Source of the DNA: Leucoraja erinacea
Lineage: Eukaryota
NCBI RefSeq assembly: GCF_028641065.1
Contig: NC_073401.1
Coordinates: 22,940,001 to 23,004,000, forward strand
Direction: 5' to 3'
DNA length: 64,000 nt
Position 1 is the first letter of the stretch, and every line of letters starts with the position of its first letter. The notes beneath the pieces are model-generated. The model did not search any database. It was not told the DNA's origin and worked only from the letters and a program-made list of their open reading frames with translations. Positions 1,885 through 46,843 of the stretch are shown here, in pieces. A program made the position numbers and the translations under genes.

Positions 1885-3743
1885 CTGGAAATAAAGAATT
1901 GAAATAAATACAGGTGAATTATTTATCAGTTAGTCCTTGGAGTGTAGAAGACCTTAGGGTGATCGCATGGCGGTGTACAAAATCGCGAGGGGAATACATA
2001 GGGTTGGCGCATGGAATCTTTTCCCCGTAGTAGGAGAATGAAGAATTAAAGGGCTTTGGTTCAGGGCAACATTTGTACACATAACGCGTTGACTCCATGG
2101 AATGAGTTCCCCAGAGAAGTTGACGAGGCAGGTACAATAAAACACCATTTAAATAAACATTTGAATTAATACTTGGATAAGAAAGGTTCAAAGAGATATG
2201 GGCCTGACACGCGCAAATGGGACCAGCTCGAGTAGGGCAACCCGGTCGGCATGAAATAGGTGGACTGAAGGACTGTTCCACCGCTGCATAACTCCGTGGC
2301 TCTATGGCCGTGTACTGCACTGGCTTTACAATTACCGTTCATTTATAAACTTCATTTTATACAGCAGAATCATGATAAGTTAATGTTTATGGGGGTATAT
2401 CCGAGGTTTGGTAAAACATTTAACATACGATTTTCTACAGATCATGGAAACGGGCAGAAAAAATGTAAATACAACTCATCCTGGCAGAATGAGCAGCATT
2501 TCCAAATTAATGCTTGTTTAAATAGTAATCCCAATTCTATCCCGGAATAATCTGTAGAATGTTACTTATTAGTGAATCTTCCACATCGTCCAGAAAGTCC
2601 ATGATTCAATGATGGTGGCGGGCAGAAAAATGAAAGGTAAAACTAAAGAAATGTTTTGGTCAGTTTCAAATTCCTTCTGACACTTGTCCAGACAGCTCTG
2701 GGTTTAACATCCAACATATTCGGACTTTAAAAAACATTTCAAGCTAATGCAGGTTTCATGAACATCAGGGAAGAAAGTGGGAAATAGACTTTCAGATCAT
2801 TACAGAATTTAATAACTTTGAAGCACAGCTGTCAGTCTGTAAAGGCGTTAAATTCCACGATGATCAAGAAGCCACGGATAGATGAGCGCAGATTTCCCGG
2901 AGTATTGTAGGGATGGAGGTAAAGGATTATTTAAAAAAAAAAAAAACAAGTTCACGTAGGAGAAACAAGGAACCGCGAATGTTGGCATCTTGAGTACAAC
3001 ACAAAGTGCTAAAGTAATCCAGCGGATCAGACAGCATCTCTGGAGGACAAAGAAAGATGATATTTCCGTTCGGGAAAGTCTCGCAAAGATTCCGACACGA
3101 AACATTGCCCATCTATACGTCTACCGGAGATGCTGGCTGGCCCGTTGTGTTCTACTTAGGTCTAATAGGATCTTTCTACCGAGGATTTGTGATGGAAAGC
3201 AAATCATAAGTTCAACGATTCGTTGTTTCACACCGTGAATACTTTACTTACTGCTTAGATTCAGTTTGGTTCCTCTCCCGAATGTGACTTTGTCATAATT
3301 GCCATCACACACAGCACAGTAATAATCGGCCGCGTCCTCCGATTGCACGTTGGTGATGGTTAAATGCATTTGGTTCGTGGATGATTCCTCGGATCCCGTG
3401 AATCGGTCTGGAATTCCGGTGCCTCTGGTGGAGCCTCCATACCACACGAAGACAGGGCTGCTGTCCGGCTTCTGCCAGTACCAGCTCGTGTACCAGCTAC
3501 CGATGCTGCCCCCTGACAGTGTACAGGTGATTTTGACGGTTGTTCCCGGCGATTGTGATATAGACGGGACCTGAGTCAAGGTAATCTCCGCGTTTAAAGC
3601 TGATAGAAATAACAGATAAATATACAGAACCATTAGAAAAAAAAAACACGGCAGAATGTAAAACGATACAGCATTAATCATTCTGCGCTCTACTCACAGT
3701 GGAAACAGGTCACCAAGGCGAGAACCCAAACCCATTCAGCCAT
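1562..3743 (-). CDS. IGL: Ig light chain cluster 1, germline-joined VJ, type II/NS3 (lambda) class; intact; exons 3698-3743 (L), 3252-3599 (VJ), 1562-1884 (C)
   Basis: Exons splice in frame with GT/AG phase-1 junctions: MAEWVWVLALVTCFH-SLNAEITLTQVPS...WYWQKPDS...DAADYYCAVCDGNYDKVTFGRGTKLNLS-SPRSPTVSIL...ARSSCL*. WYWQKPDS and MHLTITNVQSEDAADYYC match shark type II (lambda) chains as I recall them. Confidence 0.95.
3252..3599 (-). CDS. IGLV: Fused VJ exon, cluster 1 (CDR3 AVCDGNYDKVT)
   Basis: Acceptor tttctatcag, canonical Cys/Trp/YYC, FGRGTKLNL J motif contiguous with V and no RSS, donor A|gtaagt; 348 nt, in frame. Confidence 0.95.
3698..3743 (-). CDS. Leader exon, cluster 1 (MAEWVWVLALVTCFH)
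   Basis: 46-nt exon, ATG at 3743, donor T|gtgagt, hydrophobic signal peptide. Confidence 0.93.
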
Positions 3744-3842
3744 GTTGAAGGTTATAAGGGAATATTTTGCTGCACAAGCGCGGTTTTGAGCCCTTTCCAA
3801 GTCTCTCTTTTAAAGTCTTCAGTCACTAAATATTAATTATTC

Positions 3843-3863
3843 ATGCAAATCTTTATCCACGTG
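3843..3863 (-). promoter_or_regulatory. IgL promoter: octamer ATTTGCAT plus E-box CACGTG
   Basis: ATGCAAAT on + at 3843-3850 (light-chain orientation on the gene strand), 100 bp upstream of the ATG; CACGTG at 3858-3863; conserved in all three clusters. Confidence 0.85.
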
Positions 3864-4639: not shown

Positions 4640-6128
4640 GAGCAGAGGGGCTTGGGAGTGCTGGTGCAGGGTGGTGAAGTTAATTTACAAGTCGGTAGTA
4701 AGGAAAGCATTTCTTTGGAGAGGGCCAGAACACAAAAACAAAATACAAAAACAGGAATGTAATGCTAAGCCTTTATAAGGCACCGGTCAGACCGCATTTG
4801 GAGTGTGGTGAGCAGTTTTCGGCTCCAATCTGAGGAAGGATGAGCTAGCGTTGGAGAGGGTCCAGAGGAGGTTTCCGAGGGTGATTCCAGGGATAATTGG
4901 GTTAACATGTGATGAGCGTTTGACGGCACTGTGTCCGTGCTCGCTATATAGTTTATAAGGACGAGAGGGGGGGAGACCTCATTGAAATTAACCGAATCGT
5001 GAAAGGCCCGGATAGAGTGGATGTGGAGTGGATGTTTCGACGAGCGGGGGAGCCTAGGACCAGAGGTGAAAGCCTCAGAATAAAAGCACGTCTATTTAGA
5101 AAGGACATGGGGAGGAATTCCTTTAGACAGAGGGTGGTGAATCTGTGGAATTCGTTGCCGCAGGGGGATGTGGGAGCCAAGTCGATGGATATTTTTAAGG
5201 TGGAGATTGAGTGGTTGTTGATTAGTAACAGTGTTAAGGGTTATGAGAAGAAGTCAGGAGAATGGGGTTGAGAAGAAAAGATAAACCAAGCGTGATAGAA
5301 TGACGGGGTAGAATTGATGGGCCAAATGGCCTAATTCTCCTACAATTTATGAATTCATGAACGATGTTTCACCAATTTAACCAAAGGCTTTGAAGAAGTA
5401 CAATGACAGGCAGATATAATTTCGAGGAGGCATTTGATAAGGTGATAAATCGAAGGTTGATATGGTAAATAATATGGTAACATTGGGGGTAGGGTATTGA
5501 TATGGATGGAGAACTTGTATGGCAGACAGGAAGCAAAGAATAGGAATTAACAGGTCCTTTTCACAATGGCTGGCAGTGACTAGTGGGGTGCCACACGGCT
5601 CGGTGATGGGACCTCGGTTATTTACAAGATATATTGACGATGATGAAGGAATTAAATGTAACATCTCCATGTTTGCGGATCACAGAAAGCTGAGTGGCAG
5701 TGTGAGCTGCGAGGAGGATGCTAGGAGGCTGCAGGGTGACCTGGACAAGATTATGCAGTATTATGTGCATAAATATGCGGTTATCCACATTGGGGGCAAA
5801 AACAAGAAGGCAGATTATAATCGAATGGTGTCAGATTAGGGAAAGGGGAGGGGGGGGGGGGTGCAACGAGACCTGGGTGTCCTTGAACATCAGTCACAGA
5901 AATAAATCATGCAGGTACAGTCGACAGTGAAGAAAGCAAATGACACGTTGGCCTTCATAGCGAGAGGATTTGAGTGCAGGAGCATGGAGGACCTACTGCA
6001 GTTGTACAGGGCCCTGGTGAGAGCACACCTGGAGTATTGTGTGCAGTTTTGGTCTCCTAATATGAGGAAGGACATTCTTGCTATTGAAAGAGTGCAACGT
6101 AAATTCACCAGATTAATTCCCGGGATGG
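4640..6128 (+). mobile_element. Degenerate CR1 LINE fragments (RT 3' region)
   Basis: SGVPHGSVMGP, FAD, LYRALVRAHLEYCVQFWSP, RVVNLWNSLP. Confidence 0.85.
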
Positions 6129-8074
6129 AGGATACGCAACAAGCTGGAATGAGGTACAACAACTACCTATGAAAGGTAACAGTGTTAGCATCTAACGTCA
6201 GAAAAACAACTAATGCAAAAGAGAGAGGTTGATAGTGCTTCAGTTATACTTCATCGCAGAATCGAGCAAAGTATTGAAATGTAAATGCCTTTGAAGCAAT
6301 TAAGAAAATGATTACTAATAGACCCATATCTGCAACGAGCGAGTGGTCGACGGTTAGAAGCATGAGAGGTGCTTTAATTGAAGCACAGGTGATTATGCGG
6401 GGTCTTAACAGCATGTGAAGGGAGAGGACAATTCGTCTGGGGTAATCTAAAACTAAACGTCACCTGTAACACAAAAATCAATGCCTACTTCAAAAAGTGA
6501 AGAAACAAAACACATCTCTCAGAATGGAGAAAGCCTCATCAATTACGTTTCTGAAAATGTGGTAGACGCAGTCTTTATTTTTTTCCAAAGGTAGAAATAT
6601 TCCTAATAAACAAGGTGGGGTAGTGATATGTTACCAGGGGTGGTTGGGACTGCAGATCAGAGGTTACAATCAGGTTAGTCACCATTTTACTGTTTGGTGA
6701 ATTAGCTTCAAGTGACCGAGTGCGGATGAGGAACATCATCTCCTCCCCATTGACCAGCAACACAGTGCATTTCAAGGCTGCGCGCTTTACACCCTTTTCT
6801 ACTTCGTGTACACGCATGGAATGAAGCACAGCTCCAAAGTCATCTATCCACCCCCAACACCATTCTATTTGGATGAATCACTGATGGTGCTGCGTCAACA
6901 TAGAGAAGGGAGACGGAACACTTGGTTGAGTGGTGTCAGAACAACAACCTTTCGCTCCAAAGCAACAAGACGGAACTGGTCGCTGACTTCAGAAAGAGGA
7001 AGTCCGGGGACCCCCGGCCAGTTTGTTTCAGTGGAGAGGGTTATAACTGATTATAACTAATTCTAGGCATTAACACCGGGCCCAGCAAACAAATGCATCA
7101 CCGAATGAGCGCCAATGCCTCTACTTTCAAAGAATTAAAAAAAATACTTTGTCTCCAAATACTCCAACAAACGTTTACAGATCTACTACAGAAAGTACAC
7201 CACCCGGTTTAAGAACAGCTACTTACCTACAACTATCCAGATTTTGGAAGGACCAACATACCCCTAATCTTGCCTCGCTAATGGGACACTATGCCCCAAA
7301 ACTTGTACACTATCGACGTGTTTTTTTATTATTATGTTTTTGGCCGCAATCTTGTTTCATTCTTTCTGATGTAGATGTATAATGTATATATCATTTATTC
7401 TTGTGTATTTTCTGTCACAGTCCACGTGTAGGCGATGTTTCTGCAAACAAGAGTTCTCGGTTTAAAATGAGTTGTAATTGGATTTTCTGTTTGTTTCTTT
7501 TAAGAGAATAATGTTCAGTTATTTATGTCATGCGTCGTTGTTTAAATCTTTATGACTTTCATTGACACTCAACACCTTGGCAAATTGGATAGATGGAAAA
7601 CCTGAGGCTAAAATCCTGGAACCAAAACCCACTCAAATGTACAAAATCCTGTTTGCAACTGTCTTCATGTTTGTCCAAAATTAATATTAAAGTCTCTCCC
7701 GGAGGTAACATTCCCATTATTCACATTCAGTATGCACGAGCATTTTGGCCAATGATTTAATTCTCCTCTATCCCCTTAACTAGTTGTGTTCTGTACCAAT
7801 AGCAATATATTCACATCAACAATCATGATGGAATAGCGGCTTACACGCAGGAGAGGGAGAGAGTACTCAGCGAGCACTTCAAACTTCAATATGACAGGAG
7901 AATGAGTAGGTAAATGATGGATGAAATCTATCACAGAGAAGTATGAGCTTGTATCGTTTGCCTCGTGTGTGGAGGGGGAGGAGGGGGAGGCAATGTGGGT
8001 TCAAAGTTCGCAGGAACCGAGGGACTTTGTGTTCATGAGCACACATCTGCCAAGGTAGAAAGATATATCGCGAG

Positions 8075-8515
8075 AGTAGACAATAGACTACAGACAATAG
8101 ATGCAGGAGGAGGCCATTCGGCCCTTCGCGCCAGCACCGCCATTCAAAGGCTGATCATCCCCAATCAGTACCCCATTCCCACCCTCTCTCCATATCCCCT
8201 GACTCCGCTATTTTTAAGAGCCCTATCTAGTTCTCACTTGAAAGAATCCAGAGAACCTGCCTCCATCGCCCTCTGAGGCAGAGAATTCCACACTCACGAC
8301 TCTCTATGAGAAAACGTATTTCCTCGTCTCCGTTCTAAATGGCTTACTCCTTATTCTTGAACTGTGGTCCCTGGTTCTGGACTCCTCCAACATCGGGAAC
8401 ATGTGTTTTGCCTCTAGCGTGTCCAAACCCTTAACAATCGTATATGTTTCAATGAAATATCCTCTCATCCTTCAGAGTGTACAAGCCCAGCTGCTCTATT
8501 ATCTCAGCATATGAC
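8075..8515 (-). mobile_element. CR1 LINE 3' end (paralogous copies near 38135-38570 and 53228-53675)
   Basis: Reverse-strand CR1 C-terminus and 3' UTR with a (caataga)n tail. Confidence 0.75.
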
Positions 8516-8959
8516 AGAGTAGTGAGCAAAAACCTGTGATATATGTGGGGTTTCAAAGAACGAAGTATCGAGTAAGCGGAGAGGTTACCTCTCAAGCTTT
8601 GGTTAAACCGTGGCTGAATCGGAAAACTGTGATAGAAGAATATTTTTATGCAGTGAAAGATTCCTCCTATTCGCTCCCTGCAAAGGTGAAGGAAGTGAAG
8701 ATAAACAATGGTTTCAAACCTAAATCACATCACGCAAAGGCCTTGACCACATATCCAGACATATTTCAACAGGGAAGGTGTGGAATCTAAATTATGTTAA
8801 GTGTCTGGAATATTTCAGAAGAAACATCAGTTTGTATGATTGATTATTACAAAACAACTGGGTCCCAAATATATCTTTCAAGGGGAAAATAATCCAATTA
8901 TTGCTGGTCTGGCCTGTACGTGACCTCAGACACAATATTGCGTTTGACCCATTTCAGAA

Positions 8960-9446
8960 CCAAGCGGAGGTTGGGCGATCGTTTCGCCGAACACCTCCGC
9001 TCGGTCCGCAATAACCTAGCTGACCTCCCGGTGGCTCAGCACTTCAACTCCCCCTCCCACTCCGCCTCTGACCTCTCTGTCCTGGGTCTCCTCCATGGCC
9101 ACAGCGAGCAGCACCGGAAATTGGAGGAACAGCACCTCATATTCCGTTTGGGGAGTCTGCACCCCGGGGGCATGAACATCGACTTCTCCCAATTCTGTTA
9201 GTCCTTGCTGTCTCCTCCCCTTCCTCAGCTCCCCTGCTGTCTCCTCCCACCCTCCAGCCTTCCGGCTAGTCCTCCTTTTCCCTTTCTTGTCCCCACCCAC
9301 CCCCACCCCTGATCAGTCTGAAGAAGGGTTTCGGCCCGAAACGTTGCCTATTTCCTTCGCTCCATAGATGCTGCTGCACCCGCTGAGTTTCTCCAGCTTT
9401 TCTGTGTAACCTTCGATTCTCCAGCATCTGCAGTTCCCTCTTTAAC
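8960..9446 (+). mobile_element. 5'-truncated Penelope-like element (GIY-YIG C-terminus plus terminal repeat), copy-specific
   Basis: TKRRLGDRFAEHLRSV...VAQHFNS...RKLEEQHLIFRLGSL; TSD TCAGAA at 8954-8959 and 9447-9452; empty sites near 39010 and 54890. Confidence 0.85.
9318..9345 (+). ncRNA. Minimal hammerhead ribozyme core in the Penelope terminal repeat
   Basis: CTGAAGA-A-GGGT(TTCG)GCCC-GAAA-CG-TT with palindromic AACGTT stem III. Confidence 0.65.
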
Positions 9447-9559
9447 TCAGAATTGGCCGCGTTGAGCTTCATCACAGATGTAAGGTACGGCAGCGCCATC
9501 TACCGTTAGAATCGGAGACTGCATCAGTATCTTCTGCCCACGCGGTCAAATGGTCAACT

Positions 9560-10854
9560 TATTTTCTTTGTTTTTTAAGAGATATATACAAAACCGTGCA
9601 ACACCATCACCATAAATAAAACAAATTAAGAAAAACAACAGTCAAAATAAAAAAAAAAGTAGATAGGGGATAAAAAAGAAGTAAATTAAAAAAAAAAATT
9701 GGAATAAGACCGTGTGGTTCACTTTACCAACTTAAAAAGAGCAAAAACATTACATTGATTAGTTATCTGGAGATAATTCAATAATCATACAAACATACCA
9801 TCTAGTTCTATACAACGCAATCTTCCCATATCTAGCTCGGCATTTATCTAATTGGTGTCATGGCTCAAATAAATGGTCCATTATTCCCAGATCTTCTCAA
9901 ATGAATTTTCCTTGACTCTCAAGGAATATGTCAATTTCTCCATATTAAAGATGTCTCGCACAATTTCTAACCACTGTTCCTGTTTTGGACTTTTTCATTA
10001 AGCCACTGCCTGGTAATGGCCTTCTTACTTGCTGCAAGCACAACTTTAATCAAATATGTATCTTTTATTTTTACAATATCTTTAATACGGCCCAGATACA
10101 TCACATGGCAGGTATTTGGAATTTTATAACCCAAGATATTTTTTACAGCTGCATTAACATTTTCCCAGTATGGCCTTATCTTTACACAGTTCCAGAAAAT
10201 ATGCGAGTGGTCTGCCTCCGTACTCCCACACAGCCTCCAACAGTGTTGTTGGACAGTGAGTTTGCTGCTTATAAAAAAAAGCGAGATAGATTCTTCCAGC
10301 AAAACTCTTTCCATACTAATGTGCTTGTGGAAGGACATTGTGTTTCACACATTTGATACCATTCTTCTTATGGGGGAAGAAGAAGCCGCCATTGCCGGCC
10401 CGCGGATAACTTCTACCGCGGGCCCGGCATGGACTTACCATCACCCCTGGAGGGGAGCTTCGACCGCCGGCCCTGCAGTCTACGGTGCTTCTGGCTGCGG
10501 CGGGGACTTTAAATCTCAACCGCCGGCCTGCGGCCTACACAATCTTGAAGCCGCGGTCTCCGGTGAGGAAAGACCGATCCTGGACTGGACTCTGGACTCT
10601 GGTCTTGTCCACGGGGGGGGGGGGAAATGGAGGAGGGCGGCCAACATTTTTTGTGCCTTCCACCACAGTGATGAATGCTGTGGTGGATGTTTATGTTACA
10701 TGTTGTGTCCTGTTTATGCATTTTATTATTTTGTTAACCCATCTTTATGCTTTGCATGGAACTGATTTTTAAATTATGTAAAGCACTTTGGGGTCAATGA
10801 AAATTGACTATAAATGTGCTATATAAATAAACTTATTATTATTATTATTATTAA

Positions 10855-10901
<47 letters not shown>

Positions 10902-14349: not shown

Positions 14350-14672
14350 TTATAGGCAACTGGATCTGGTGATGTCTGCCTTAATCGGGGTTGCCTGGGT
14401 TTCGTGTTGAACCACACAGGAGTAAAGATCGTGTGAGTTCCAGTAGGCGGCTGGCAGAGTCAGGTAACTGCTCGCACTGAACGAGTTGTCCTTCTCCTGC
14501 TGGACCCGGCTGGTCGCAGCGCCGTCACTTCTCACACTGCCGTCCACGGTCCACTTAATGTCCACAGCGCCCGGGTTGAACCCGCTCACCAAACACACCA
14601 GGATGGCGGTACTTTTTGCGGTGACTTCACCCATTGATGGCGCCAGAATGGAAACGGTGGGGGAGCGCGGAC
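14350..14672 (-). CDS. IGLC: Constant exon, cluster 2 (open frame)
   Basis: 323 nt, 6 aa differences from the cluster 1 C exon. Confidence 0.9.
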
Positions 14673-17064
14673 CTGGAAATAAAGAATTGAAATAAATACA
14701 AATGAATTATTTATCAGTTGATTTAAAAGTCAGAATCGATTCAGCTGGAATGACTCCAGGCAAGATATATGCCGACTCGTTGGATAGATTGGATATGCGA
14801 GGACGTTAGTCCTTGGAGTGTAGAAGACCTTAGGGTGATCGCATGGCGGTTACAAAATCGCGAGGGGAATACATAGGGTTAGCGCATGGAATCTTTTCCC
14901 CGTAGTAGGAGAATGAAGAATTAGTGGGTTTAGGTTCAGGGCAACATTTGTACACATAACGCGTTGACTCCATGGAATGAGTTCCCCAGAGAAGTTGATG
15001 AGGCAAGTACAATAACACCATTTAAATAAACATTTGAATTAATACTTGGATAAGAAAGGTTCAAAGAGATATGGGCCTGACACGCGCAAATGGGACCAGC
15101 TCAAGTAAGGCAACCCGGTCGGCATGAAATAGCTGGACTGAAGGACTGTTCCACCGCTGCATAACTCCGTGGCTCCATGGCCGTGTACTGCACTGGCTTT
15201 ACAATTCCCGGTCATTTATAAACCTCATTTTATACAGCAGAATCATGATAAGTTAATTTTTATGGGGGTATATCCGAGGTTTGGTAAAACATATAACATA
15301 CAATTTTCTACAGATCATGGAAACGGGCAGAAAAAATGTAAATACAACTCATCCTGGCAGAATGAGCAGCATTTCCAAATTAATGCTTGTTTAAATAGTA
15401 ATCCCAATTCTATCCCGGAACAATCTTTAGAATGTTACTTATTAGTGAATCTTCCACATCGTCCAGAAAGTTCATGATTCAATGATGGTGGCGGGCAGAA
15501 AAATGAAAGGTAAAACTAAAGAAATGTTTTGGTCAGATTCAAATTCCTTCTGACACATGTCCAGACAGCTCTGGGTTTAACATCCAACATATTCGGACTT
15601 TAAAAAACATTTCAAGCTAATGCTGAATTTAAAGACGCTGTACTATTTCCTTCCAATCGTACGATTCAAGGCAATTCAGCAATAACCTCGTATACACGTG
15701 TGCCCATTTCTGCATTAATTTATCAGAAAATGGAAAATTATGTCTCGCTCTTTGAAGCTTTTTTGACATGTCGGTCTACCAACCGCCTGCCCGTAAAAAA
15801 AATCAACACTCAGAGGGATCATGTTTAACAGCATAATGAACAGTCTGCGTTTTCTGCTATATCATACACTCGATGGCAATCGGAGAACTAGCATCAAAAT
15901 CCCTTGCAGGTTCTACAAGAGTCAAGGGTACAAAGAGTCTGACGGCATATCCACACAAATGTGATCAGCTAAGGTGGCAATGGCTCGCTGAACGAGGAAT
16001 GAACCAGAATCCGGTTCTGCTCTTGTTTCTAATTTCGGAGCTGAATCAGACTTGCAACAATCCTCCACGCTTTCGCGTAAAGGGAATTGAAATGCTCCGT
16101 GCGAAGCGTTTAAATTTTGGTTTTAACCTTTTCCCTGACAATTAGTTTTAGCGCTGTTGTAGGGAGCGCGTGTAACCCTGTCTAAACGCCACTTCACCCT
16201 CATGGTATCATTAAAACGATCAGAAATCAACTTCGCGCAATTTGCCCTAATGGGTATTTGCAATTCCAAAAATATCCCATTTAAATTCACCGACATCCCT
16301 TGCCAAATGTTTATTAACTTTCCTTTGGATGTTTCCAATGATTCTATTTGGCCCACTCTCAGAGTTGGTATTATCCGTGTCCACAATATACTGTAAGTTA
16401 ATGAAATCTCATAATTTCCCGAACATTTGTTCAAGTAACGGCAACAGTTTTGGTTTGCATTCCGCTTATATTGAAGCAAAGTGACCAATAGCAGCAGTCT
16501 CATATGGAACCCGCCACTTGAGGATACTTCAAATCAGAGAATCAGTATTCCTGTTAAAGGAGCAGGTTTCATGAACATCAGGGAAGGAAGTGGGAAATAG
16601 ACGTTCAGATCATTACAGAATTTAACAACTTCGCATTTGAAGCACAGCTGTCAGTCTGTGAAGGCGTTAAATTCCACGATGATCAAGAAGCCACGGATAG
16701 ATGAGCGCAGATTTCCCGGAGTATTGTAGGGATGGAGGTAAAGGATTATTAAAAAAAAAACAAGTTCACGTAGGAGAAACAAGGAACCGCGAATGTTGGC
16801 ATCTTGAGTACAACACAAAGTGCTGAAGTAATCCAGCTGATCAGACAGCACCTCTGGTCCACAAAGAAAGATGATATTTCCGTTCGGGAACCTTTCGCAA
16901 AGGTTCCGACACAAACCATTGCCCATCTATACTTCTACCGGAGAAGCTGGCTGACCCGTCCTGTCTACTTTAGTTTAATAAGAACTTTCTACCGAGGATT
17001 TATGATGGAAAGCAAAACCCAAGTTCAACGATTTGTTGTTTCACACCGTGAATACTTTACTTAC

Positions 17065-17410
17065 TGCTTAGATTCAGTTTGGTTCCTCTCCCGAAGGTGA
17101 ATATGTATGTACTTGCTGGCACGCACAGCACAGTAATAATCGGCCGCGTCCTCCGATTGCACGTTGGTGATGGTTAAATGCATTTGGTTCGTGGATGATT
17201 CATCGGATCCCGTGAATCGGTCTGGAATTCCGGTGCCTCTGGTGGTTCCATACCACACCAAGACAGGGCTGCTGTCCGGCTTCTGCCAGTACCAGCTCGT
17301 GTAGAAGCTACCGATGCTGCCCCCTGACAGTGTACAGGTGATTTTCACGGTTGTTCCCGGCGATTGTGATATAGACGGGCTCTGAGTCAAGGTAATCTCC
17401 GCGTTTATAG
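17065..17410 (-). pseudogene. IGLV: Out-of-frame VJ exon, cluster 2
   Basis: 34 nt between the Cys codon and the J-Phe codon. Confidence 0.88.
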
Positions 17411-17507: not shown

Positions 17508-17553
17508 AGTGGAAACAGGTCACCAAGGCGAGAACCCAAACCCATTCAGCCAT
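17508..17553 (-). CDS. Leader exon, cluster 2
   Basis: Same sequence as the cluster 1 leader, gtgagt donor. Confidence 0.9.
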
Positions 17554-17673: not shown

Positions 17674-19119
17674 ACACCGATTCACTGAATTATTGGCTCG
17701 GGGTAAAATGATATTTCTGCAGCTCCAGCCCTTTGGGAGAAAGAAATATTCATGTTGTTTTAAGTGGGAGGAGAATAGCAGACAACGGTGAACTCAACGG
17801 CGGCGGGGGGAGGGGGAGAGAAGCTCTGAGACTCACACGGGAACTGTTGTGTGAGAGCAGGCTCTTATTTACTGAGTAAACGGTGTCAGCTGTGTTGAAT
17901 GGTGGCACTGTACAGACTTTGCACTAATCACCTTAAGCTCCCAAATAATTATAAAATAACACCTTTGTCCTTTTCCTACAAATAATTCGCAGTCGTGTAA
18001 TAGTGCAATGCACCATTCCACCATTAGCCCCTTCATTGTATTTAAAGTGTCCACTTTAATGGTGAAATTAAACGGCACATGAGAGTCTGTTAATATGTCT
18101 TCATCGCAATGCGAGAGAACGACCCTTCAGACGGTCGAATTGAAGGGCATGGGAAGAACAATACATCATTAATTAAAGTAGAAATGTGAGGGTGAGGTAA
18201 TGCTGTATAGGGGTAAATGCATGCCATGGAACGGAGCCAGCTGAATGTATTGTGTTATTTTTACTTGAATGGGCTGCATGGTAACTCAAATATCACTGTA
18301 CCATAATTGGTGCGTGTATGTGACACTAAATGTGAACTTGAACTTGAAATCCACCAGCAAATTCAATTAAAATATCGGAAATTCCAGATGTAGACGGAAG
18401 CTTTCAACGTAATCATTCAAAAGACAGAAACTACACACGTGCCACAAGAAATAAAACATCCACGATTATCTCAACATGTTAAAGACAGCATTAAACTAAG
18501 AGCACAAAAAATTTCTATGAGCAAAGTTGAATGGAAATCAGAAAATTGAACAGCGAATTGTAAAATAATATGTCGAAGCGTTCAATGAGTATATTAAAAT
18601 ATTGTTGGACGTCAGCTAGAAGTGTTAATGCATGATAGTAAGAAATGCTGTCATTTTTATTACAACCTACAGACTGGACAGTGAAGTAGGGGATCTGGGG
18701 TAAAAGTAAAGGGGAATATGGAGATGACAGAAAATGTAAACTGAAAAATGTCCTCGGTCTGCACTGCTACAGAACACGGACAACATCCCAGAAACGGCTG
18801 CAGACATGGAAGTGGAAGCAAGGAACAAACTCACTAACGTTGCAATCATTAGGAAGTTGATAGAGCCACGGGCTGACAGGGTGTTAAGATGTATTGTATT
18901 TCATTCTAGAATCTTAATTCATCCCAATGCAGCGCTGAATTCATTGCTTTGAGTTTTTATTTCAAAACTACCATGGACGTTCCTTGGTGATCATTTACAT
19001 TCAGAAAGGAGGAGGGACAGAAATATTGCAAGCTGTTACTAAAACGATATAAAGGGTATTGACAAAATAATCAATAAGGTCATCTCGCAAAAGTCAAAAT
19101 ATTGTTGAGAAAGGGAACA

Positions 19120-21100
19120 TTCAGAAACGTAAGGTGCAAAGGGGTTTGGGAGTGCTGGTGCAGGATTCCCCAAAAGTTAATTTACAAGTCTGTAGTCGGG
19201 AAGGCAAATGCAATGCTAGCATTTCTTTCGAGAGGGCCAGAACACAAAAACAGAATACAAAACCAGGGATGTATTGCTGGGCCTTTATCAGGCACTGGTC
19301 AGACCGCATTTGGAGTGTTGTGAACGGTGTCGGGCTCCAATCTGAGGAAGGGTGAGCTGGCGTTGGAGAGGGTCCAGAGGAGGTTTACGAGGGTGATCCC
19401 ATGGATCCCAGGGCGACACAACCCTGATTGGACTGATCCAGGTTGGGGAGGAATCTGCCTACAGACAGGAAGTAACACAGCTGGCGTCCTGGTGCCTTCG
19501 TAACAATCTGGAGCTCAATGTCCTTAAGACGGTGGAATTGATAGTAGACTTTGGGAGAGCGCCCCCTCCCCTCCTGGATAGAGTGGATGTGGAGTGGATG
19601 TTTCGACGAGCGGGGGAGTCAAGGACCAAAGGTTATAGCCTCAGAATAAAAGGACGTACATTTACAAAAGGTGATGAGGAGGAATTCCTTTAGTCAGAGG
19701 GTGGTGAATCTGTGGAATCCATTGCTTCAGAACGCTGTGGAAGCCAACTCAATGGATATTTTTAAGGTGCAGATTGATTGGTTGGTGATTAGTAAGAGTG
19801 ATAAGGGTTATGGGGATAAGTCAGGAGAATGGGGCTGAGAGGGGCTGAGAGGGAGAGATAAATCAAGCGTGATAAAATGGCCGGGTAGAATTAGAGCTGA
19901 AAGGCCTAATTCTGGTCCTACAATTTATGAATTTATGAAGGACGTTCCACCAATTTACCGAAAGGCTTTGAAGAAGTTCCAAGCCAGGCAGATATAATTT
20001 CGAGCAGGCATTTGATAAGGTGAGGAATCGAAGGTTGATCTGGTAAATAATGTGGTAATATTGGAGGTAGGGTATTGACATGGATGGTGAACTATATGGC
20101 AGACAGGAAGCAAAGCGTAGGAATTAACGGGTCCTTTTCAGAATGGCAGGCAGTGACTAGTGCCGCAAGGCTCAGTGTTGGGACCTCAGTTATTAACTAT
20201 ATATATTAACGATTAAGATGAAGGAATTAAATGCAACATCTCCAAGTTTGCTGATTACACAAAGCTGGGTGACAGTGTGAGCTGCATGGAGGATGCTATG
20301 AGGCAGCAGGGTGACTTGGATAGGATGTGTAAATGGGCAGATGCATGACAGATGCAGTATAACGTGGATAAATGTGAGGTTATCCACTTTGGTGGCAAAA
20401 ACAGGAAGGCAGATTATTATCTGAATGGTGTCAAATTTGGGAAAGGGGAGGTGAAACGAGAACTGTGTGTCCTTGAACACCAGTCACGGAAAGAAAGCTT
20501 GCAGGTGCAGTCGGCAGTGAAGAAAATCGAATGGCACGTTGGCCTTCATTGCGAGAGGATTTGAGTATAGGAACAAGGTGGTCCGACGGCAGTGGTACAG
20601 GGCCCTAGTGAGACCACACCTGGTCTATTGTGTGCAGTTTTAGTCTCTAAATTTGAGGAAGGACATTCTTGCTATTGAGGGAGTGCAACGTCGGTTCACC
20701 AGATTTTACTTCGGAGTCACGTGAGAAGATTCCGTGAAGACATATAACATTCTTAAGGGATTGGATACACTAGATGCATGTAAAATGTTCCCGATGATGG
20801 GGGAATCCAGAACCAGGCGTCCTAGTTTTAAAAAATGGTAGGCCATTTAGGACAGAGATGCGGAAACACTTTTGTTACGCAGAGAGTTGTGAATCTGTGG
20901 AATTCTCTGCCACAGAAGGCAATGGAGGCCAAATCACTGGTTGTATTCAACAGAGAGTTAGATATAGCTTTTAGGGCTGATGGAACCAAGGGATATGGGG
21001 AGAAAGCAGGAACGGGATACCGATTTTGGATGATCAGCCATGATCATGTTGAATGGCGGTGCTGCTCGAAGGGCCGAATAGCCTACTCCTGCACGTATTT
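19120..21100 (+). mobile_element. Degenerate CR1 LINE fragments upstream of cluster 2
   Basis: KCEVIHFGGKNRKADYYLNG, RVVNLWNSLP, CR1 3' UTR. Confidence 0.85.
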
Positions 21101-22032
21101 TCTACGAGTCTTGGTATTTATTGTTAAGAAAAGAACATTGGGCGATTAGTTTGAAACATAGATCACGCATAAATAGGCAAAATTCAGGTTGGAAAGATGC
21201 AAAAACTGATGTGCCTCATAGATCACTGCTGGAGCCACAATTTCTAAAAATGCTTAAAAAAATGTTGGCTGTTGAATTTGTTAATGACATGAAGAACAAA
21301 ACAAGGCCACCGTGGATGTGGATAGTTCCAGTGATTGGGCAAAGGCCTGGTAAATGCGGGATGTGGGAACATGTGAAATGTCAATTTTGGCAGGATAAGT
21401 GATACAAAAGAATGTTATTTACAATATAGACACAAAAAGTTGAGGTAACTCAGAGGGACAGGCAGCATCTCTGGAGAGAAGGTATGGTTAACGTTTCGGG
21501 TCGAGGCCCTTCATATTTACATTTTGACAATTTTCAGTGTTTTGAGATGCAGAATTATTTCGAATTGTTGGTGAGCATTCGCCACAGGCTAGAAAAAGGT
21601 ACAACAACTACCTAGGAAAGGTAACAGTGTTAGCATCTTACGCCAGAAAAACCGAATACAAAAGAGAAAGGGTCTTAGTGTTTCAGTTGTACTTCATCGC
21701 AGAATCGAGCAGAGTATTGAAATGTAAATGCCTTTGAAGCAATTCAGAAAATGGTTACTAATAGACCCATATCTGCAACGAGCGAGTGCTCGACAGTTTG
21801 AAGCATGAGAGTTGCTTTAATTGAAGCACAGGTGATTATGCGGGGTCTTAACAGCATGTGAAGGGTGAGGACAATTCGGCTGGGGTAATCTAAAGCTAAA
21901 CGTCACCGGTTAAACAAAAATAAATGCCTACTTCAAAAAGTGAAGAAACAAAACACATCTCTCAGAATGGAGAAAGCCTCATCAATTACGTTTCTGAAAA
22001 TGTGGTAGAAGCAGTATTTACTTTTTTTCCAA

Positions 22033-39119: not shown

Positions 39120-40203
39120 TATTTTCTTTGTTTTTTAAGAGATATATACAAAACCGTGCAACACCACCACCATAAATAAAACAAAGTAAGAAAAACAACA
39201 ATCAAAATAAAAAAATAAGTAGATAGGGGAAATAAAAGAAGTAAATTAAAAAAAAAATTGGAATAAGACCGTGTGGTTCACTTTACCAACTTAAAAAAAG
39301 CAAAAACATTACATTGATTAGTTATCTGGAGATAATTCAATATTCATACAAACATACCATCTAGTTCTATATAACGCAATCTTCCCATATCTAGCTCGGC
39401 ATTTATCTAATTGGTGTCATGGCTCAAATAAATGGTCCATTATTCCCAGATCTTCTCAAATGAATTTTCATTGACTCTCAAGGAATATGTCAATTTCTCC
39501 ATATTAAAGATGTCTCGCACAATTTCTAACCACTGTTCCTGTTTTGGACTTTTTCATTAAGCCAGTGCCTGGTAATGGCCTTCTTACTTGCTGCAAGCAA
39601 AACTCTAATCAAATATGTATCTTTTATTTTTACAATATCTTTAATACGCCCCAGATACATCACATGGCAGGTATTTGGGATTTTATAACCCAAGATATTT
39701 TTTACAGCTGCATTAACATTTTCCCAGTATGGCCTTATCTTTACACAGTTCCAGAAAATATGCGAGTGGTCTGCCTCCGTACTCCCACACAGCCTCCAAC
39801 AGTGTTGTTGGACAGCGAGTTTGCTGCTTATTAAAAAAAGCGAGATAGATTCTTCCAGCAAAACTCTTTCCATACTAGTGTGCTTGTGGAAGGACATTGT
39901 GTTTGAAGCCGCGGTCTCCGGTGAGGAAAGACCGATCCTGGACTGGACGCTGGACTCTGGTCTTGTCACGGGGGGGGGGGGGGGGGGGGGGGGGGTGTGG
40001 AGGAGGACGGCCAAAATTGTTTGTGCCTTCCACCACAGTGATGAATGCTGTGGTGGATGTTTATGTTACATGTGTGTCCTGTTTATGCATTTTATTATTT
40101 TGTTAACCCATCTTTATGCTTTGTATGGAACTGATTTTTAAATTATGTAAAGCACTTTGGGGTCAATGAAAATTGACTATAAATGTGCTATATAAATAAA
40201 CTT

Positions 40204-40235
<32 letters not shown>

Positions 40236-41500
40236 ATTATCTGAATCATTAATTCTGCTTCCTATTTTGTTTTTATGTAGAGCGTTGATTCTCCCCCGCT
40301 TCCCATCAGAGCTTGGTAGAAAGCAGAGTTGACCCGAGACCCCTTCTGTTTGTAGGCATCCACAATCACCTTGATCACATTATTTGAAGTTTCATCTAGT
40401 TCTGGCCTTATCTCTTTTGTAAAGTAGTCCCTTAATTGCAAGTATCTAAAAAAATCTTTGTTTTCGAGACCAGACTTTGACTTTAAATCTTGGAAGCTCA
40501 TAAACTCGCCATTTTCTGAAACTGTATACATTACCATTATGCCTTTTTGTGCCCATTCTTTGAATTTTGAATCATACACCCCTGGTTAAACTTTGAGTCA
40601 TATGCGAACCACTTCAATGCGTGAACCCCTCTTTTTAATTTGTATTTTTCCACTATAACACTACATATTTCTAACGTAAATGCTACTATGTGGTCCATAG
40701 CGTGTCTCAAAGCCCCTCTCAGATATTAGTCTCCCACCAAAATCTGTATCTGGTAACCCTGTATCTACCTTTCAATTTCTTTCCATCGAGATTCATAATC
40801 AGGTCTACACCAACAGAGGTCTGAGTTGAGCTACATAAAAGTATTTCCTCAGATTTGGTAAAGCCATTGCTTTTCGGCAGTTGAAGTGTTGTTAGTTTTA
40901 TTCTTGTTTTTTTGCTATTCCAAATGAATCTAGAGATCATTTTATCCCAGACTATGGATTTATCTCGGGGGACATTAATTGGGAGAGATTGGAATAAATA
41001 TAGTAGTTTAGGTAGGATATTCATTTTTACCGTTTGTATTCTGGTACTGAAGTCTAGAGGAAGGGTCGACCACCTTTCAACATCATTTTTGATGTTTTCT
41101 TCAATTTTATTATAATTAGTTTCAAACGAGTTGGAAAGTGTTTTGGTTATAGTTACACCAAGATACTGCATCGTTTTAGAATTCCATTCCAGATTATATG
41201 CATCTCTGATTTGTTGGGATGGAGAATAATTGAATGAAATAATTTGTGTTTTTGTCATCAGCGAAAAGACCAATTATATGTTCTTTCCCCCCTATTTTGA
41301 CCCCCTGCAGGTGTTCTCCCTGCTTTATTGCTTGTGCTAAGGGTTCAATATACAAAACGAAGAGAGTAGGAGAAAGACAGCATCCTTGCGTTGTGCCCCT
41401 CTCTAACTGGATCTGTTTTGATATGTTTCCATTTACCTTAATCCTAGCTGTAGGCTCCTGATATATTGTTTTAATGCACCGAATTGCATCTTGGACAATA
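39120..41500 (-). mobile_element. L1/Tx1-clade fragment, duplicate of 9560-12240
   Basis: Collinear near-identical sequence; QGCCLSPTLF, GLFADD. Confidence 0.8.
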
Positions 41501-43209
41501 CCTGCATTTTCATATAACAATTACAGCACGGTAACAGGCCATCTCGGCCCTACAAGTCCATGCCGAACAATTTTTTTTTTCCCCTTAGTCCCACCTGCCT
41601 GCACTCGTACCATAACCCTCCATTCCCTTCTCATCCATATGCATATAACAAACCATATAACAATTACAGCACGGAAACAGGCCATCTCGGCCCTACAAGT
41701 CCATGCCGAACAAATCACATCAAGCAGTTTACATTTGCCTCCCCATAAATGACAAGAACTGTAAATATACCAAAGGTGCTGCAGATTATGTCAATATTTT
41801 TGGATTGATTCAGCATCTGAGAGCAAGATAACTGCAGGGACCACAGAACATCGTCGAATGCAGCGCCACTTCATGCTGGATGAACATTTACTCGAAGCTA
41901 CATCTTGTGTTATTGTGAGCAGCCAGACAACTTTATTTTACGGTACAGAGATGAGTTCTCCTGCCCACCAGCCCCCGCATTCCTCTGCCAACTGGGATTC
42001 TTTTTGTACAGGTCCCGATCATTTCTGCAGATCTGCTGTAAGCATGTATCAGCCATGATCATATTGAAAGGCGGTGCAGGCTCGAAGGGCCGAATGGCCT
42101 ACTCATGTACCTATTTTCATTAAAAAAAAGTATCACTAGGAGTTATTCAGTAGGGAAATGCCCTTCGGCCCAACAAGTCCCACCTGCCCGCGGTGGCCCG
42201 TATCCCCCTAAACCTTTCCTATCAATGTACCTGTCCGAATGTTTATTAAATGTTGTTATAGTACCTGTTTGAACTACCTCTTGTAAATAAACCACGTGGC
42301 GCCGTGGAGCCTACTGGGCCAAATATCCAAGCTCGTATGGAGGTTGAGGAATACTGCGTTGATGAAAAACTAAACGCTGACCAGTATTTCCAAAATACCC
42401 GTCGCCCATCAAAAGTAAAGGAAGCCTCGCGGGGGTAGGAAAATGGGGTCAAACCATGGATATGTTCGACTTGCAACTGGGTGTAGGATATCAATGTAGA
42501 TCATGGAAAAGTCTGACAAGAAGTGGATTGAAGAGGTAAATTCGATCAGAGAGGTGGTCATAATACCGGACAAATCCAGCAAAACAAGACTTCGCCATTG
42601 GACTCCACATGACTCGCCGGGTCAGGCAACAGCTGATTAGAATTGCGAGGCATCATTTCACGTCGTGCCCCTGGAACAGAGGAGGTAAATGTGTGAAATA
42701 GATATGAGGTGCGATACAGCTGGCCAAGTGATAGATCGGTGGATACATGTGAGAGGGGGTTGATTAGCAGATGGGGGCGGGCGGTTAATTGGCAAAGGCT
42801 GTGGGTGAAAAGGAACAAGAAATGAAATCAGCCACAAAATAAGGGGGGAAGGGAGTGAATGATAACCGTGGAGGAAGGGATGGGATAAAAATAGACAGCA
42901 CACGTCCCCAACCTGTTATTGTACTACTGGAAATTGACATCGTAGTAGAGAATCTCTCCAGATAGGACACTCACATCGGAAGCAGATTTCCCCCAGATTT
43001 TCACAATTTATTCCCCCTGTTAAACATGTTTTTTCATTCCCAGAGAAGAACATCCAAGCAGTTGCCATGTCCCGAAAGCTGTTTATCCCATTTCTGGGAA
43101 TCGAGAAGTAACTACTTTTACTCCGGTTAATTGTTGTTGCGAAACCCCCCCCTTCAAACCGGAACCACCCCCCCCCCCCCCCACTGGTTTGCACTAATAT
43201 CTTCAATCT

Positions 43210-43244
<35 letters not shown>

Positions 43245-43454: not shown

Positions 43455-43633
43455 GCATGAAATGTTACATTATTGTTTTTCAGTTCATCGTAAAATACCA
43501 ACAGCGCATTCACGGCAACAAAATGCACACGTGCTGCGTTTGAACAAATACCCTGTTAAAGCGAACATTCGATATCTGAATATTGGATTAATTTACAAAG
43601 AAATGGAGCAAATCGGGAATTTGATCCTTTGAA

Positions 43634-43956
43634 TTAGAGGCAACTGGATCTGGCGATGTTGGCCTTAATCGGGGTTGCCTGGGTTTCGTGTTTAACCACA
43701 CAGGAGTAAAGATCGTGTGAGTTCCAGTAGGCGGCTGGCAGAGTCAGGTAACTGCTCGCACTGAACGAGTTGTCCTTCTCCTGCTGGACCCGGCTGGTCG
43801 CAGCGCCGTCACTTCTCGCACTGCCGTCCACGGTCCACTTAATGTCCACAACGCCCGGGTTGAACCCGCTCACCAAACACACCAGGGTGGCGGTACTTTT
43901 TGCGGTGACTTCACCCATTGATGGCGCCAGAATGGAAACGGTGGGGGAGCGCGGAC
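43634..43956 (-). CDS. IGLC: Constant exon, cluster 3
   Basis: 323 nt C1-set domain ending SSCL*. Confidence 0.95.
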
Positions 43957-46843
43957 CTGGAAATAAAGAATTGAAATAAATACAAATGAATTATTTATCA
44001 GTTGATTGAAAAGTCAGAATCGATTCAGCTGGAATGACCCAGGCAAGATATATGCCGACGGTGCCAGGTTTCGAACGCCTGAACTATAGGCATAGATTGG
44101 ATATGCGAGGACGTTAGTCCTTGGAGTGTAAAGACCTTAGGGTGATCGCATGGCGGTTACAAAATCGCGAGGGGAATACATAGGGTTAGCGCACGGAATC
44201 TTTTCCCCGTAGTAGGAGAATGAAGAATTAAAGGGCTTTGGTTCAGGGCAACATTTGTACACATAATGCGTTGACTCCATGGAATGAGTTCCCCAGAGAA
44301 GTTGATGAGGCAGGTACAATAACACCATTTAAATAAACATTTGAATTAATATTTGGATAAGAAAGGTTCAAAGAGATATGGGCCTGACACGCGCAAATGG
44401 GACCAGCTCAAGTAGGGCAACCCGGTCGGCATGAAATAGGTGGACTGAAGGACTGTTCCACCGCTGCATAACTCCGTGGCTCTATGGCCGTGTACTGCAC
44501 TGGCTTTACAACTACCGTTCATTTATAAACCTCATTTTATACAGCAGAATCATGATAAGTTAATTTTTATGGGGGTATATCCGAGGTTTGGTAAAACATA
44601 TAACATACGATTTTCTACAGATCATGGAAACGGGCAGAAAAAATGTAAATACAACTCATCCTGGCAGAATGAGCAGCATTTCCAAATTAATGCTTGTTTA
44701 AATAGTAATCCCAATTCTATCCCGGAACAGTCTTTAGAATGTTACTTATTAGTGAATCTTCCACATCGTCCAGAAAGTCCATGATGGTGGCGGTCAGAAA
44801 AATGAAAGATAAAACTAAAGAAATGTTTTGGTCAGATTCAAATTCCTTCTGACACTTGTCCAGACAGCTCTGGGTTTAACATCCAACATATTCGGACTTT
44901 AAAAAACATTTCAAGCTAATGCTGAATTTAAAGACGCTGTACTATTTCCTTCCAATCGTACGATTCAAGGCAATTCAGCAATAACCTCGTATACACGTGT
45001 GCCCATTTCTGCATTAATTTATCCGAAAATGGCAAAATGATGTCTCGCTCCTTGAAGCTTTTTTGACATGTCGGTCTACCAACTGCCTGCCCATGAAACA
45101 AAATCAACACTCAGAGGGATCATGTTTAACAGCATAATGAACAGTCTGCGTTTTCTGCTATATCATACACTCGATGGCAATCGGAGAACCAGCATCAAAA
45201 TCCCTTGCAGGATCTACAAGAGTCAAGGGTACAAAGAGTCTGACGGCATATCCACACAATTGTGATCAGCTAAGGTGGCAATGGCTCGCTGAACGAGGAA
45301 TGAACCAGAATACGGTTCTGCTCTTGTGTCTAATTTCGGAGCTGAATCAGACTTGCAACAATCCTCCACGCTTTCGTGCAAAGGGAATTGAAATGCTGCC
45401 GTGCGAAGCGTTTAAATTTTGGTTTTAACCTTTTCCCTGACAATTAGTTTTAGCGCTGTTGTAGGGAGCACGTGTAAACCTGTCTAAACGCCACTTCACC
45501 CTCATGGTATCATTAAAACGATCAGAAATCAACTTCGCGCAATTTGCCCTAATGGGTATTTGCAATTCCAAAAATATCCCATTTAAATTCACCGACATCC
45601 CTTGCCAAATGTTTATTAACTTTCCTTTGGATGTTTCCAATGATTCTATTTGGCCCACTCTCAGAGTTGGTATTCTCCGTGTCCACAATATACTGTAAGT
45701 TATCTCATAATTTCCCGAACATTTGTTCAAGTAACGGCAACAGTTTTGGTTTGCATTCCGCTTGTATTGAAGCAAAGTGACCAATAGCAGCAGTCTCATA
45801 TGGAACCCGCCACTTGAGGATACTTCAAATCAGAGAATCAGTATTCCTGTTAAAGGAGCAGGTTTCATGAACATCAGGGAAGAAAGTGGGAAATAGACTT
45901 TCAGATCATTACAGAATTTAACAACTTCGCATTTGAAGCACAGCTGCCAATCTGTGAAGGCGTTAAATTCCACGATGATCAAGACGCCACGGATATAAGA
46001 GCGCAGATTTCCCGGAGTGTTGTAGGGATTGAGGTAAAGGATTATTTGAAAAAAAACAAGTTTACGTAGGAGAAACAGGGAACCGCGAATGTTGGCATCT
46101 TGAGTACAACACAAAGTGCTGAAGTAATCCAGCGGATCAGACAGCATCTCTGGAGGACAAAGAAAGATGATATTTCCGTTCGGGAAAGTCTCGCAAAGAT
46201 TCCGACACGAAACATTGCCCATCTATACGTCTACCGGAGATGCTGGCTGGCCCGTTGTGTTCTACTTAGGTCTAATAGGATATTTCTACCGAGGATTTGT
46301 GATGGAAAGCAAAACATAAGTTCAACGATTCGTTGTTTCACACCGTGAATACTTTACTTACTGCTTAGATTCAGTTTGGTTCCTCTCCCAAAGGTATATT
46401 TACTGTGGTCCCACACAGCACAGTAATAATCGGCCGCGTCCTCCGATTGCACGTTGGTGATGGTTAAATGCATTTGGTTCGTGGATGAGACCACGGATCC
46501 CGTGAATCGGTCTGGAATTCCGGTGCCTCTTGAGGTTTCATACCACACCAAGACAGGGCTGCTGTCCGGCTTCTGCCAGTACCAGCTCGTGAAAAAGCTA
46601 CCGATGCTGCCCCCTGACACTGTACAGGTAATTTTGACGGTTGTTCCCGGCGATTTTGATATAGACGGGACCTGAGTCAAGGTAGTCTCCGCGTTTATAG
46701 CTGATAGAAATAACAGATAAATATACAGAACCATTAGAAAAAAAAACACAGCAGAATGTAAAACGATACAGCATTAATTATTCTGCGCTCTACTCACAGT
46801 GGAAACAGGTCACCAAGGCGAGAACCCAAACCCATACAGCCAT
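43634..46843 (-). CDS. IGL: Ig light chain cluster 3, germline-joined VJ, type II (lambda); intact; exons 46798-46843 (L), 46362-46700 (VJ), 43634-43956 (C)
   Basis: MAVWVWVLALVTCFH-SINAETTLTQVPS...YYCAVWDHSKYTFGRGTKLNLS-SPRSPTVS...ARSSCL*; all splice sites canonical and in frame. Confidence 0.95.
46362..46700 (-). CDS. IGLV: Fused VJ exon, cluster 3 (CDR3 AVWDHSKYT)
   Basis: 339 nt, in frame, no RSS between V and J. Confidence 0.95.
46798..46843 (-). CDS. Leader exon, cluster 3
   Basis: 46 nt, gtgagt donor, E3V change relative to clusters 1 and 2. Confidence 0.92.

What the first reader, a model, noticed from the sequence alone, without database searches (positions are those of the whole stretch)
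3252..46700. Near-identical germline-joined clusters carry very different CDR3s
Frameworks, leaders, promoters and introns are almost identical, yet the CDR3s are AVCDGNYDKVT (33 nt), AVRASKYI.. (34 nt) and AVWDHSKYT (27 nt). CDR1 (SWY/SFY/SFF), CDR2 (YGGST/YGTT/YETS, including a codon indel) and the FR3 loop (EES/DES/VVS) also differ. Germline joining of type II chains is established. No split, RSS-bearing template is present here, so the junction diversity must come from independent germline RAG events before homogenisation of the flanks, or from a post-joining diversifier such as gene conversion or germline hypermutation plus selection.
Basis: partly seen in the sequence, partly recalled or inferred. 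Interest (0 to 1): 0.75.

Follow-up and report, generated by a model that had tools for sequence, protein, structure and literature searches.

The report
Old antibody loops in homogenised clusters
Three tandem, pre-joined skate antibody light-chain genes are 96-98% alike outside their binding loops but differ at about a third of the bases in the main loop, likely because copy-to-copy DNA exchange homogenised the flanks while selection likely preserved older loop variants, a known evolutionary pattern rather than a new diversifying machine.

Summary
There are three germline-joined lambda (type II) VJ-C clusters (A, B, C), probably little skate: A's V is identical to RefSeq XP_055511526.1. CDR3 differs by 30-37%, against 2.4-4.1% for the J-C intron.

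B's 34-nt junction is best read as the common 33-nt junction plus one extra base, so 'AVRASKYI' is a shifted frame. That base is a null allele or an assembly error; I could not tell which.

The three CDR3s look like descendants of one old joint: the A/B cores are homologous (P=0.0007), and related 9- and 11-codon 'VWD' junctions occur in other skates and rays.

The clusters are mosaics. B keeps a 240-bp intron island next to J (11% diverged, against 2.6% further on), which matches its old upstream flank (13%). Synonymous CDR3 sites are also raised. Across sharks and rays, C exons group by genus while CDR3 classes cross genera.

Best reading (0.65): old duplicates homogenised by gene conversion or unequal crossover, with selection keeping the CDRs different, as in opsin paralogues. 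Separate RAG joints for these three genes and germline hypermutation are poorly supported. Real, tidy, not surprising.

The parts
3843..3850 (-). Cluster A promoter octamer (also 17653-17660 in B, 46943-46950 in C)
   Evidence: read from the alignment; the octamer label is recalled
3698..3743 (-). Cluster A leader exon
   Evidence: matches the N-terminus of P0001
3252..3599 (-). Cluster A germline-joined VJ exon, in frame; CDR3 3283-3315 AVCDGNYDKVT
   Evidence: 100% identical to XP_055511526.1
1562..1884 (-). Cluster A C exon, intact
17508..17553 (-). Cluster B leader exon
   Evidence: RNA reads of a relative skip 17411-17507 (9 reads, run X23)
17065..17410 (-). Cluster B VJ exon; 34-nt CDR3 17096-17129 = 33-nt class plus one base at 17113/17114; frameshift, with a stop at codon 15 of the shifted C frame
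16825..17064 (-). B-specific old island in the J-proximal intron (26 of 234 differences to C, 27 of 234 to A; A vs C 3 of 241)
14350..14672 (-). Cluster B C exon, open in its own frame
18704..21560 (-). B upstream flank, colinear with A and C upstream but 13% diverged (308 of 2352): relic of the old duplication
46798..46843 (-). Cluster C leader exon
46362..46700 (-). Cluster C VJ exon, in frame; CDR3 46393-46419 AVWDHSKYT (two codons shorter)
43634..43956 (-). Cluster C C exon, intact
204..1300 (.). A downstream flank, 13-17% diverged from B's, while B and C downstream flanks are 98% alike
34830..43092 (.). Third copy of the inter-cluster spacer (96-99% to 5649-13636 in most blocks); may point to a further cluster hidden in the N gaps at 31751-34829
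   Evidence: the hidden cluster is inferred

Best explanation
These are three tandem germline-joined lambda (type II) light-chain clusters whose CDR3s likely descend from one ancient, already-joined V-J junction and were likely kept divergent by selection, while gene conversion or unequal crossover likely homogenised the promoter, frameworks, distal intron and C exon. Shown: gene structure, the divergence mosaic (1-4% segments beside 11-17% relics), raised synonymous and non-synonymous CDR3 differences, and related junctions in other skates and rays. Inferred: the duplications are older than the 2-4% identity suggests. Exchanges that erase a distinct CDR are selected against, which leaves a peak of divergence at CDR3 and, in B, a linked 240-bp neutral island. 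Length change (C, -6 nt) is by a small in-frame deletion or by retention of an old 9-codon form. B's +1 base is a null allele or an assembly error. The result is a small hard-wired light-chain repertoire that somatic hypermutation can then vary (established for sharks, not tested here).
For: Island: B vs C 26/234 in the first 240 intron bases, against 50/1948 in the rest (Fisher P=2e-8; 0 of 5000 permutations reach the window maximum). The rate equals B's old upstream flank (308/2352, P=0.47), and so does the ts/tv ratio (P=1.0). Which copy is the odd one out changes along the gene (chi-square permutation, 0 of 5000): B in the 5' flank, proximal intron and C exon, but C in FR1-FR3. The CDR2 codon gap unites B+C. 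In CDR3, pS 0.23-0.51 is about equal to pN 0.27-0.37, against FR pS 0.015-0.059, which fits older ancestry and not only fast amino-acid change. Both intron types occur in contigs of two coded organisms (B-type pieces X3 rec. 17, X2 rec. 9; A/C-type loose ends at 16964 in X1, X3, X2), so that split predates theirs. The nearest CDR3 to A is Amblyraja P0069 (AVCDTSTYKFT) and to C is Amblyraja P0002 (AVWDNSKYKFT); the nearest C exons of A, B and C are from the same species. Among 90 genes the nearest neighbour is congeneric for 75.4 C exons, 62.5 frameworks and only 31 CDR3s. The six 5-codon CDR3 genes from six genera are rejected as a clade on C (AU p=6e-5) but not on frameworks (p=0.64). The general model is described for opsin paralogues (PMC3924837, passages).
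Against: DNA was available for only three genes, and CDR3 has 6-8 synonymous sites; part of pS comes from path averaging in multi-hit codons. A vs C has no intron island (3/241) yet differs at 10 of 27 CDR3 bases, so very short retained tracts must be assumed there. CDR3 divergence (30-37%) is still about twice the oldest relics (P 0.02-0.13 against 0.17), so selection on amino acids is needed as well. B-C core homology is not significant alone (P=0.25), and A-C is borderline (P=0.05). B's best CDR3 match is a dogfish sequence, so B may be a separate, much older junction. Short CDR3s give noisy nearest neighbours. The 5-codon group was named after seeing a first tree. A gapped assembly of a tandem array can create false mosaics.
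Confidence: 0.65

Rival explanations
1. Plain birth-and-death duplication of one joined gene, followed by very strong positive selection on CDR3, with no important role for conversion.
For: CDR3 pN 0.27-0.37 against flank 0.024-0.041. CDR-biased replacements among joined skate type I genes were reported (PMC2192082, abstract). A vs C is 1-2% diverged over 2 kb upstream.
Against: Does not explain the neutral intron island, the abrupt 3%-to-13% boundaries, the raised synonymous differences or the shifting site patterns.
Confidence: 0.13
2. A, B and C come from separate germline RAG joinings of split lambda clusters, later homogenised.
For: Germline RAG joining is documented for nurse shark kappa (NS4), with at least five events (PMC2193156, passages). 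Three different lengths as assembled. B-C core similarity is not above chance. Discrete length classes (5, 8, 9, 11, 12 codons in 94 genes) may reflect separate ancient joints.
Against: Reviews state that all lambda genes are joined in the species studied. 0 of 6 loose ends shown at the V 3' end (17127-17130) run into a heptamer (8 of 32 loose-end rows hidden). Differences are interspersed over codons 3-11, not a central block, and A and B share the 11-codon frame. A, B and C sit in one rajid clade on C (SH-aLRT 98), whose other members carry the same VWD-type junction.
Confidence: 0.08
3. AID-type hypermutation acts in the germ line on these transcribed clusters and leaves fixed changes in CDR3 and the J-proximal intron.
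For: The raised zone (CDR3 plus about 240 bp of intron) lies where somatic hypermutation acts (recalled). 13 of 26 island differences are in runs (permutation P=0.014 for B-C, 0.06 for B-A), and tandem changes mark shark hypermutation (PMC5931798, passages). pS is about equal to pN in CDR3.
Against: No WRC/GYW enrichment among island differences (4/12 vs 30/101; 0/14 vs 26/103). ts/tv as in old flanks. Tandem excess is also present in A's downstream flank (P<0.001). The leader intron and framework synonymous sites are not raised, and A vs C proximal intron is 1%.
Confidence: 0.07
4. The differences or the mosaic are assembly artefacts (collapsed or chimeric tandem copies, base errors).
For: 8 N gaps, a satellite and 96-99% duplicated spacers. 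No contig or read group with B's 34-nt length is listed. B's extra base sits in an AA run.
Against: CDR3s of A and C are in frame and resemble those of other species. A B-type intron and an exact match to B's CDR1 stretch exist in independent runs. Each copy has its own private differences. Likely only for B's extra base (about even odds).
Confidence: 0.07

Closest known systems
Cartilaginous-fish Ig lambda (type II, NS3) germline-joined VJ-C clusters
   Same: Cluster layout, joined VJ, no RSS at V or J; 62-90% V identity to lambda-labelled proteins of sharks, rays and chimaeras; A is an annotated RefSeq protein.
   Different: Nothing in kind. The added detail is the flank mosaic, the B intron island and B's +1 base.
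Germline-joined type I (sigma-2) genes of Raja erinacea (Anderson et al. 1995, PMC2192082; abstract and reference list only)
   Same: Many joined clusters in a skate with differences concentrated in CDRs and replacements exceeding neutral changes.
   Different: Other isotype. I could not read the body, which per the search index mentions CDR3 19 times and gene conversion twice, so it may already discuss this.
Recent germline RAG joints of nurse shark kappa/NS4 (Lee et al. 2000, PMC2193156; passages and one seventh of the text)
   Same: Joined genes in a cluster array.
   Different: There split relatives exist and the joints can be rebuilt from them. Here no split relative was found and the junctions are point-diverged.
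Peak of divergence under gene conversion plus selection, e.g. red/green opsins (Fawcett and Innan review, PMC3924837; passages)
   Same: Introns homogenised within species, with a narrow functional region keeping older, cross-species differences.
   Different: Here a multi-copy antigen-receptor array; conversion tracts were inferred from three copies, not formally mapped.

Membership tests
Chondrichthyan Ig lambda (type II) cluster | Leader-V-J-C cluster with one V, J and C | tested here: met
   splice joints seen in RNA reads of a relative
Chondrichthyan Ig lambda (type II) cluster | V and C closest to lambda-class chains | tested here: met
   (all chondrichthyan hits labelled lambda, light chain or hypothetical); trees held no kappa or sigma rows
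Chondrichthyan Ig lambda (type II) cluster | V-J joined in the germ line, no RSS between them | tested here: met
   genomic-type contigs spanning the junction in X1, X2, X3
Recent germline RAG joint (NS4 type) | Closely related split V-RSS / RSS-J gene exists | tested here: not met
   none in the window or in the loose ends shown; the whole genome was not available, so absence is not proven
Recent germline RAG joint (NS4 type) | Differences confined to a central trimmed / P / N block | tested here: not met
   differences interspersed over codons 3-11
Conversion plus selection (peak of divergence) | Abrupt switches between young and old divergence along paralogues | tested here: met
Conversion plus selection (peak of divergence) | Neutral sites linked to the selected region are also older | tested here: inconclusive
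   met for B (island) and for CDR3 pS on 6-8 sites; not met for the A vs C intron
Conversion plus selection (peak of divergence) | Selected region groups across species while flanks group within species | tested here: met
   protein level only:
Conversion plus selection (peak of divergence) | Formal tract detection on many paralogues with outgroup DNA | not testable with these tools
   no eukaryote genome DNA could be fetched
AID hypermutation footprint | WRC/GYW targeting and transition bias | tested here: not met
AID hypermutation footprint | Excess of tandem substitutions | tested here: inconclusive
   P=0.014 and 0.06 in the island, but also in a control flank

The most novel reading that the evidence does not exclude
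Shark-type tandem hypermutation leaks into the germ line at transcribed, pre-joined lambda clusters and writes heritable changes into CDR3 and the J-proximal intron; conversion and selection then sort them. A somatic antibody diversifier would be building the inherited repertoire.
Probability: 0.07. Interest if true: 0.8.

Novelty: new member of a known kind. Interest (0 to 1): 0.32.

Why it matters
Germline-joined light chains gave up junctional diversity, and how they keep a varied repertoire is an old question. The evidence suggests that ancient CDR3 lineages survive as selected islands while C exons, introns and promoters are homogenised within each lineage, and current shark and ray genomes make this directly testable. 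It also warns that CDR3 length differences among joined genes should not be counted as separate germline RAG events without outgroups. The ingredients are all known, so the gain is incremental.

Tried and rejected
Whole-genome search for an unjoined lambda V: no genome is held. No RNA holder was listed for this stretch, so expression of A, B and C themselves was not tested. Logan contigs gave one junction-spanning contig per run, so B's extra base could be neither confirmed nor rejected, and depths are not copy numbers. Idea that adjacent V-exon differences (CDR1, FR3 loop) are single tandem events: intermediate states and in P0068 allow stepwise single changes, so it was dropped. B as a 30-nt junction plus a 4-nt duplication: possible from B alone, but 20 of about 27 RNA reads and all 3 spanning contigs differ from B by a one-base gap. 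AID-hotspot test: negative, with 2 of 10 Fisher tests near p=0.02 in unhelpful directions. V-only protein search at near lengths gave only 4 hits. Earlier findings of the scan: none. PMC7094790 and PMC47676 are not held; no supplement could be read for PMC2192082. Eight paper searches listed no study of conversion or CDR3 islands in chondrichthyan lambda arrays. Most subscription papers are missing from that library, so this is weak evidence of novelty.
Full report
What is there. The window holds three immunoglobulin light-chain clusters on the minus strand, each with octamer, leader exon, 97-98 nt intron, joined VJ exon, intron and one C exon. blastn with the VJ, C and leader regions finds exactly three copies of each. 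The V of cluster A is 100% identical to RefSeq XP_055511526.1, labelled lambda-like, Leucoraja erinacea, so the window is probably little skate. [quoted passage not shown] RNA reads of a related, coded organism show the leader-V splice (9 reads) and the J-C splice (20 reads) (run X23).

The observation. CDR3 differs at 10/33, 10/27 and 10/27 aligned bases. The J-C intron differs by 2.4-4.1%, the 5' flank by 2.5-4.2% and the C exon by 0.9-2.8%. Non-synonymous CDR3 differences exceed the flank rate in all three pairs (P 1e-4 to 1e-6). CDR1+2 does so in one pair of three, and frameworks and C in none.

B's junction. Laid on B, all three junction-spanning contigs (one each in X1, X3, X2) and 20 of about 27 RNA reads show a one-base gap in CDR3; 3 reads show a two-base gap. 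With the base at 17114 set aside, B reads as an 11-codon junction, AVRASSTYIFT. As assembled, B shifts frame and meets a stop at codon 15 of the shifted C frame. No listed contig carries B's own junction, so a null allele cannot be told from an assembly error.

One junction or three? I compared CDR3s of 94 chondrichthyan lambda chains. The set left out 7 rows without a pattern match, 5 reptile rows, partial proteins, one divergent Pristis row, one fused model and most redundant chimaera cDNAs. Lengths were 9 (37), 11 (36), 12 (13), 5 (6) and 8 (2) codons. A 'VWD' junction of 9 or 11 codons recurs in Amblyraja (AVWDNSKYKFT), Rhinoraja (GVWDNSKFT), Hypanus, Mobula, Pristis and a Leucoraja cDNA (AAWDNSNYKFT). 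The X1/X3 contig reads AVWDNSNDKFT (decoded by hand); by hand tally A and B each match it at 16 of 24 core bases. A and B cores match each other at 15 of 24 against a shuffle mean of 8.0 (P=0.0007). A-C is borderline (P=0.05) and B-C is not significant (P=0.25). Differences are spread over codons 3-11 rather than forming a central block. On C exons, A, B and C fall in one rajid clade with SH-aLRT 98. None of the 6 loose ends shown at the V 3' end runs into a heptamer; read by hand, the longer ones continue into other CDR3-J sequences (8 of 32 rows hidden). One old joint is therefore the simplest origin for these three, although B's closest CDR3 is from dogfish and could be a separate ancient lineage.

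The flanks are a mosaic. B is 2-4% from A and C from about 450 bp upstream of the leader to the C exon, but 12-14% beyond that in colinear DNA, part of it LINE-like. A's downstream flank is 13-17% from B's, while B and C are 98% alike there. Inside the gene, B's first 240 intron bases differ from C at 26/234, against 50/1948 further on (P=2e-8). That rate and the ts/tv ratio equal those of the old upstream flank (P=0.47, P=1.0). Site patterns change along the gene (0 of 5000 permutations). Both intron types are present in two coded organisms. Synonymous CDR3 differences are as high as non-synonymous ones, on only 6-8 sites. Against this neat picture, A and C have no intron island (3/241), and CDR3 is still about twice as diverged as the oldest relics, so amino-acid selection is also needed.

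The wider pattern, at protein level only. The nearest neighbour is from the same genus for 75.4 of 90 C exons, 62.5 frameworks and 31 CDR3s (ties shared; identical congeneric CDR3s excluded). In a 57-row subset, six 5-codon genes from six genera are rejected as a clade on C (AU p=6e-5) but not on frameworks (p=0.64); the group was named after a first tree had been seen. On frameworks, C groups with two Amblyraja genes (SH-aLRT 85) and A and B with the Leucoraja cDNA (91), on only 72 columns.

Mechanism. The best reading (0.65) is old duplicates of an already-joined gene, homogenised by conversion or unequal crossover, with selection preserving distinct CDRs. This is the peak-of-divergence pattern described for opsins (PMC3924837, passages). 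The mosaic and the counts are shown; conversion and selection are inferred. Rivals: selection alone (0.13), separate RAG joints (0.08), germline hypermutation (0.07) and artefact (0.07). Hypermutation has a mild tandem excess in the island, but no hotspot or transition signal, and the same excess appears in a control flank (shark tandem signature from PMC5931798, passages).

Against what is known. CDR-biased replacement among joined skate genes was reported in 1995 for type I (PMC2192082; I saw only the abstract and references, and no supplement could be read). Germline RAG joining was shown for kappa, where split relatives exist (PMC2193156, passages and part 4 of 7). PMC5985310 (passages) added nothing on this point. 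The older type II papers were seen only as reference entries and may already discuss CDR3 length classes. Eight searches listed no conversion analysis of these arrays, but the library lacks most subscription papers. Verdict: a real, well-supported new instance of known phenomena; interest 0.32.

Noticed in passing
window 3695-3732, 17505-17542, 46795-46832 (+): An RSS-like motif (perfect heptamer, 22-bp spacer, nonamer with 2 mismatches) spans the leader exon end and splice donor of each cluster; 0 matches in 100 shuffles, but the three are copies of one site, the pattern was fitted after seeing it, and it may simply follow from leader codons and the splice site.
   Followed up: partly
window 31751-34829 and 34830-43092: A third copy of the inter-cluster spacer starts right after a 100-N gap, so a further cluster may be missing from the assembly; the X1/X3 junction and cDNA P0068 match none of A, B, C.
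   Followed up: partly
window 22033-27437: A 5.4-kb GC-rich satellite of an 18-bp unit (about 298 copies) interrupts B's upstream spacer.
   Followed up: no
loose ends at window 17127-17130: The coded organisms carry further divergent lambda-like V lineages with other CDR3 classes, not present in this window.
   Followed up: partly
proteins P0043, P0057, P0059, P0060, P0062, P0064: A very short 5-codon CDR3 lambda gene recurs in five shark genera and one ray, which suggests a conserved, possibly specialised light chain.
   Followed up: partly
window 2750, 14720-14805, 15623-16562, 44003-44113: J-C introns differ by insertions or deletions: A lacks about 940 bp present in B and C.
   Followed up: no
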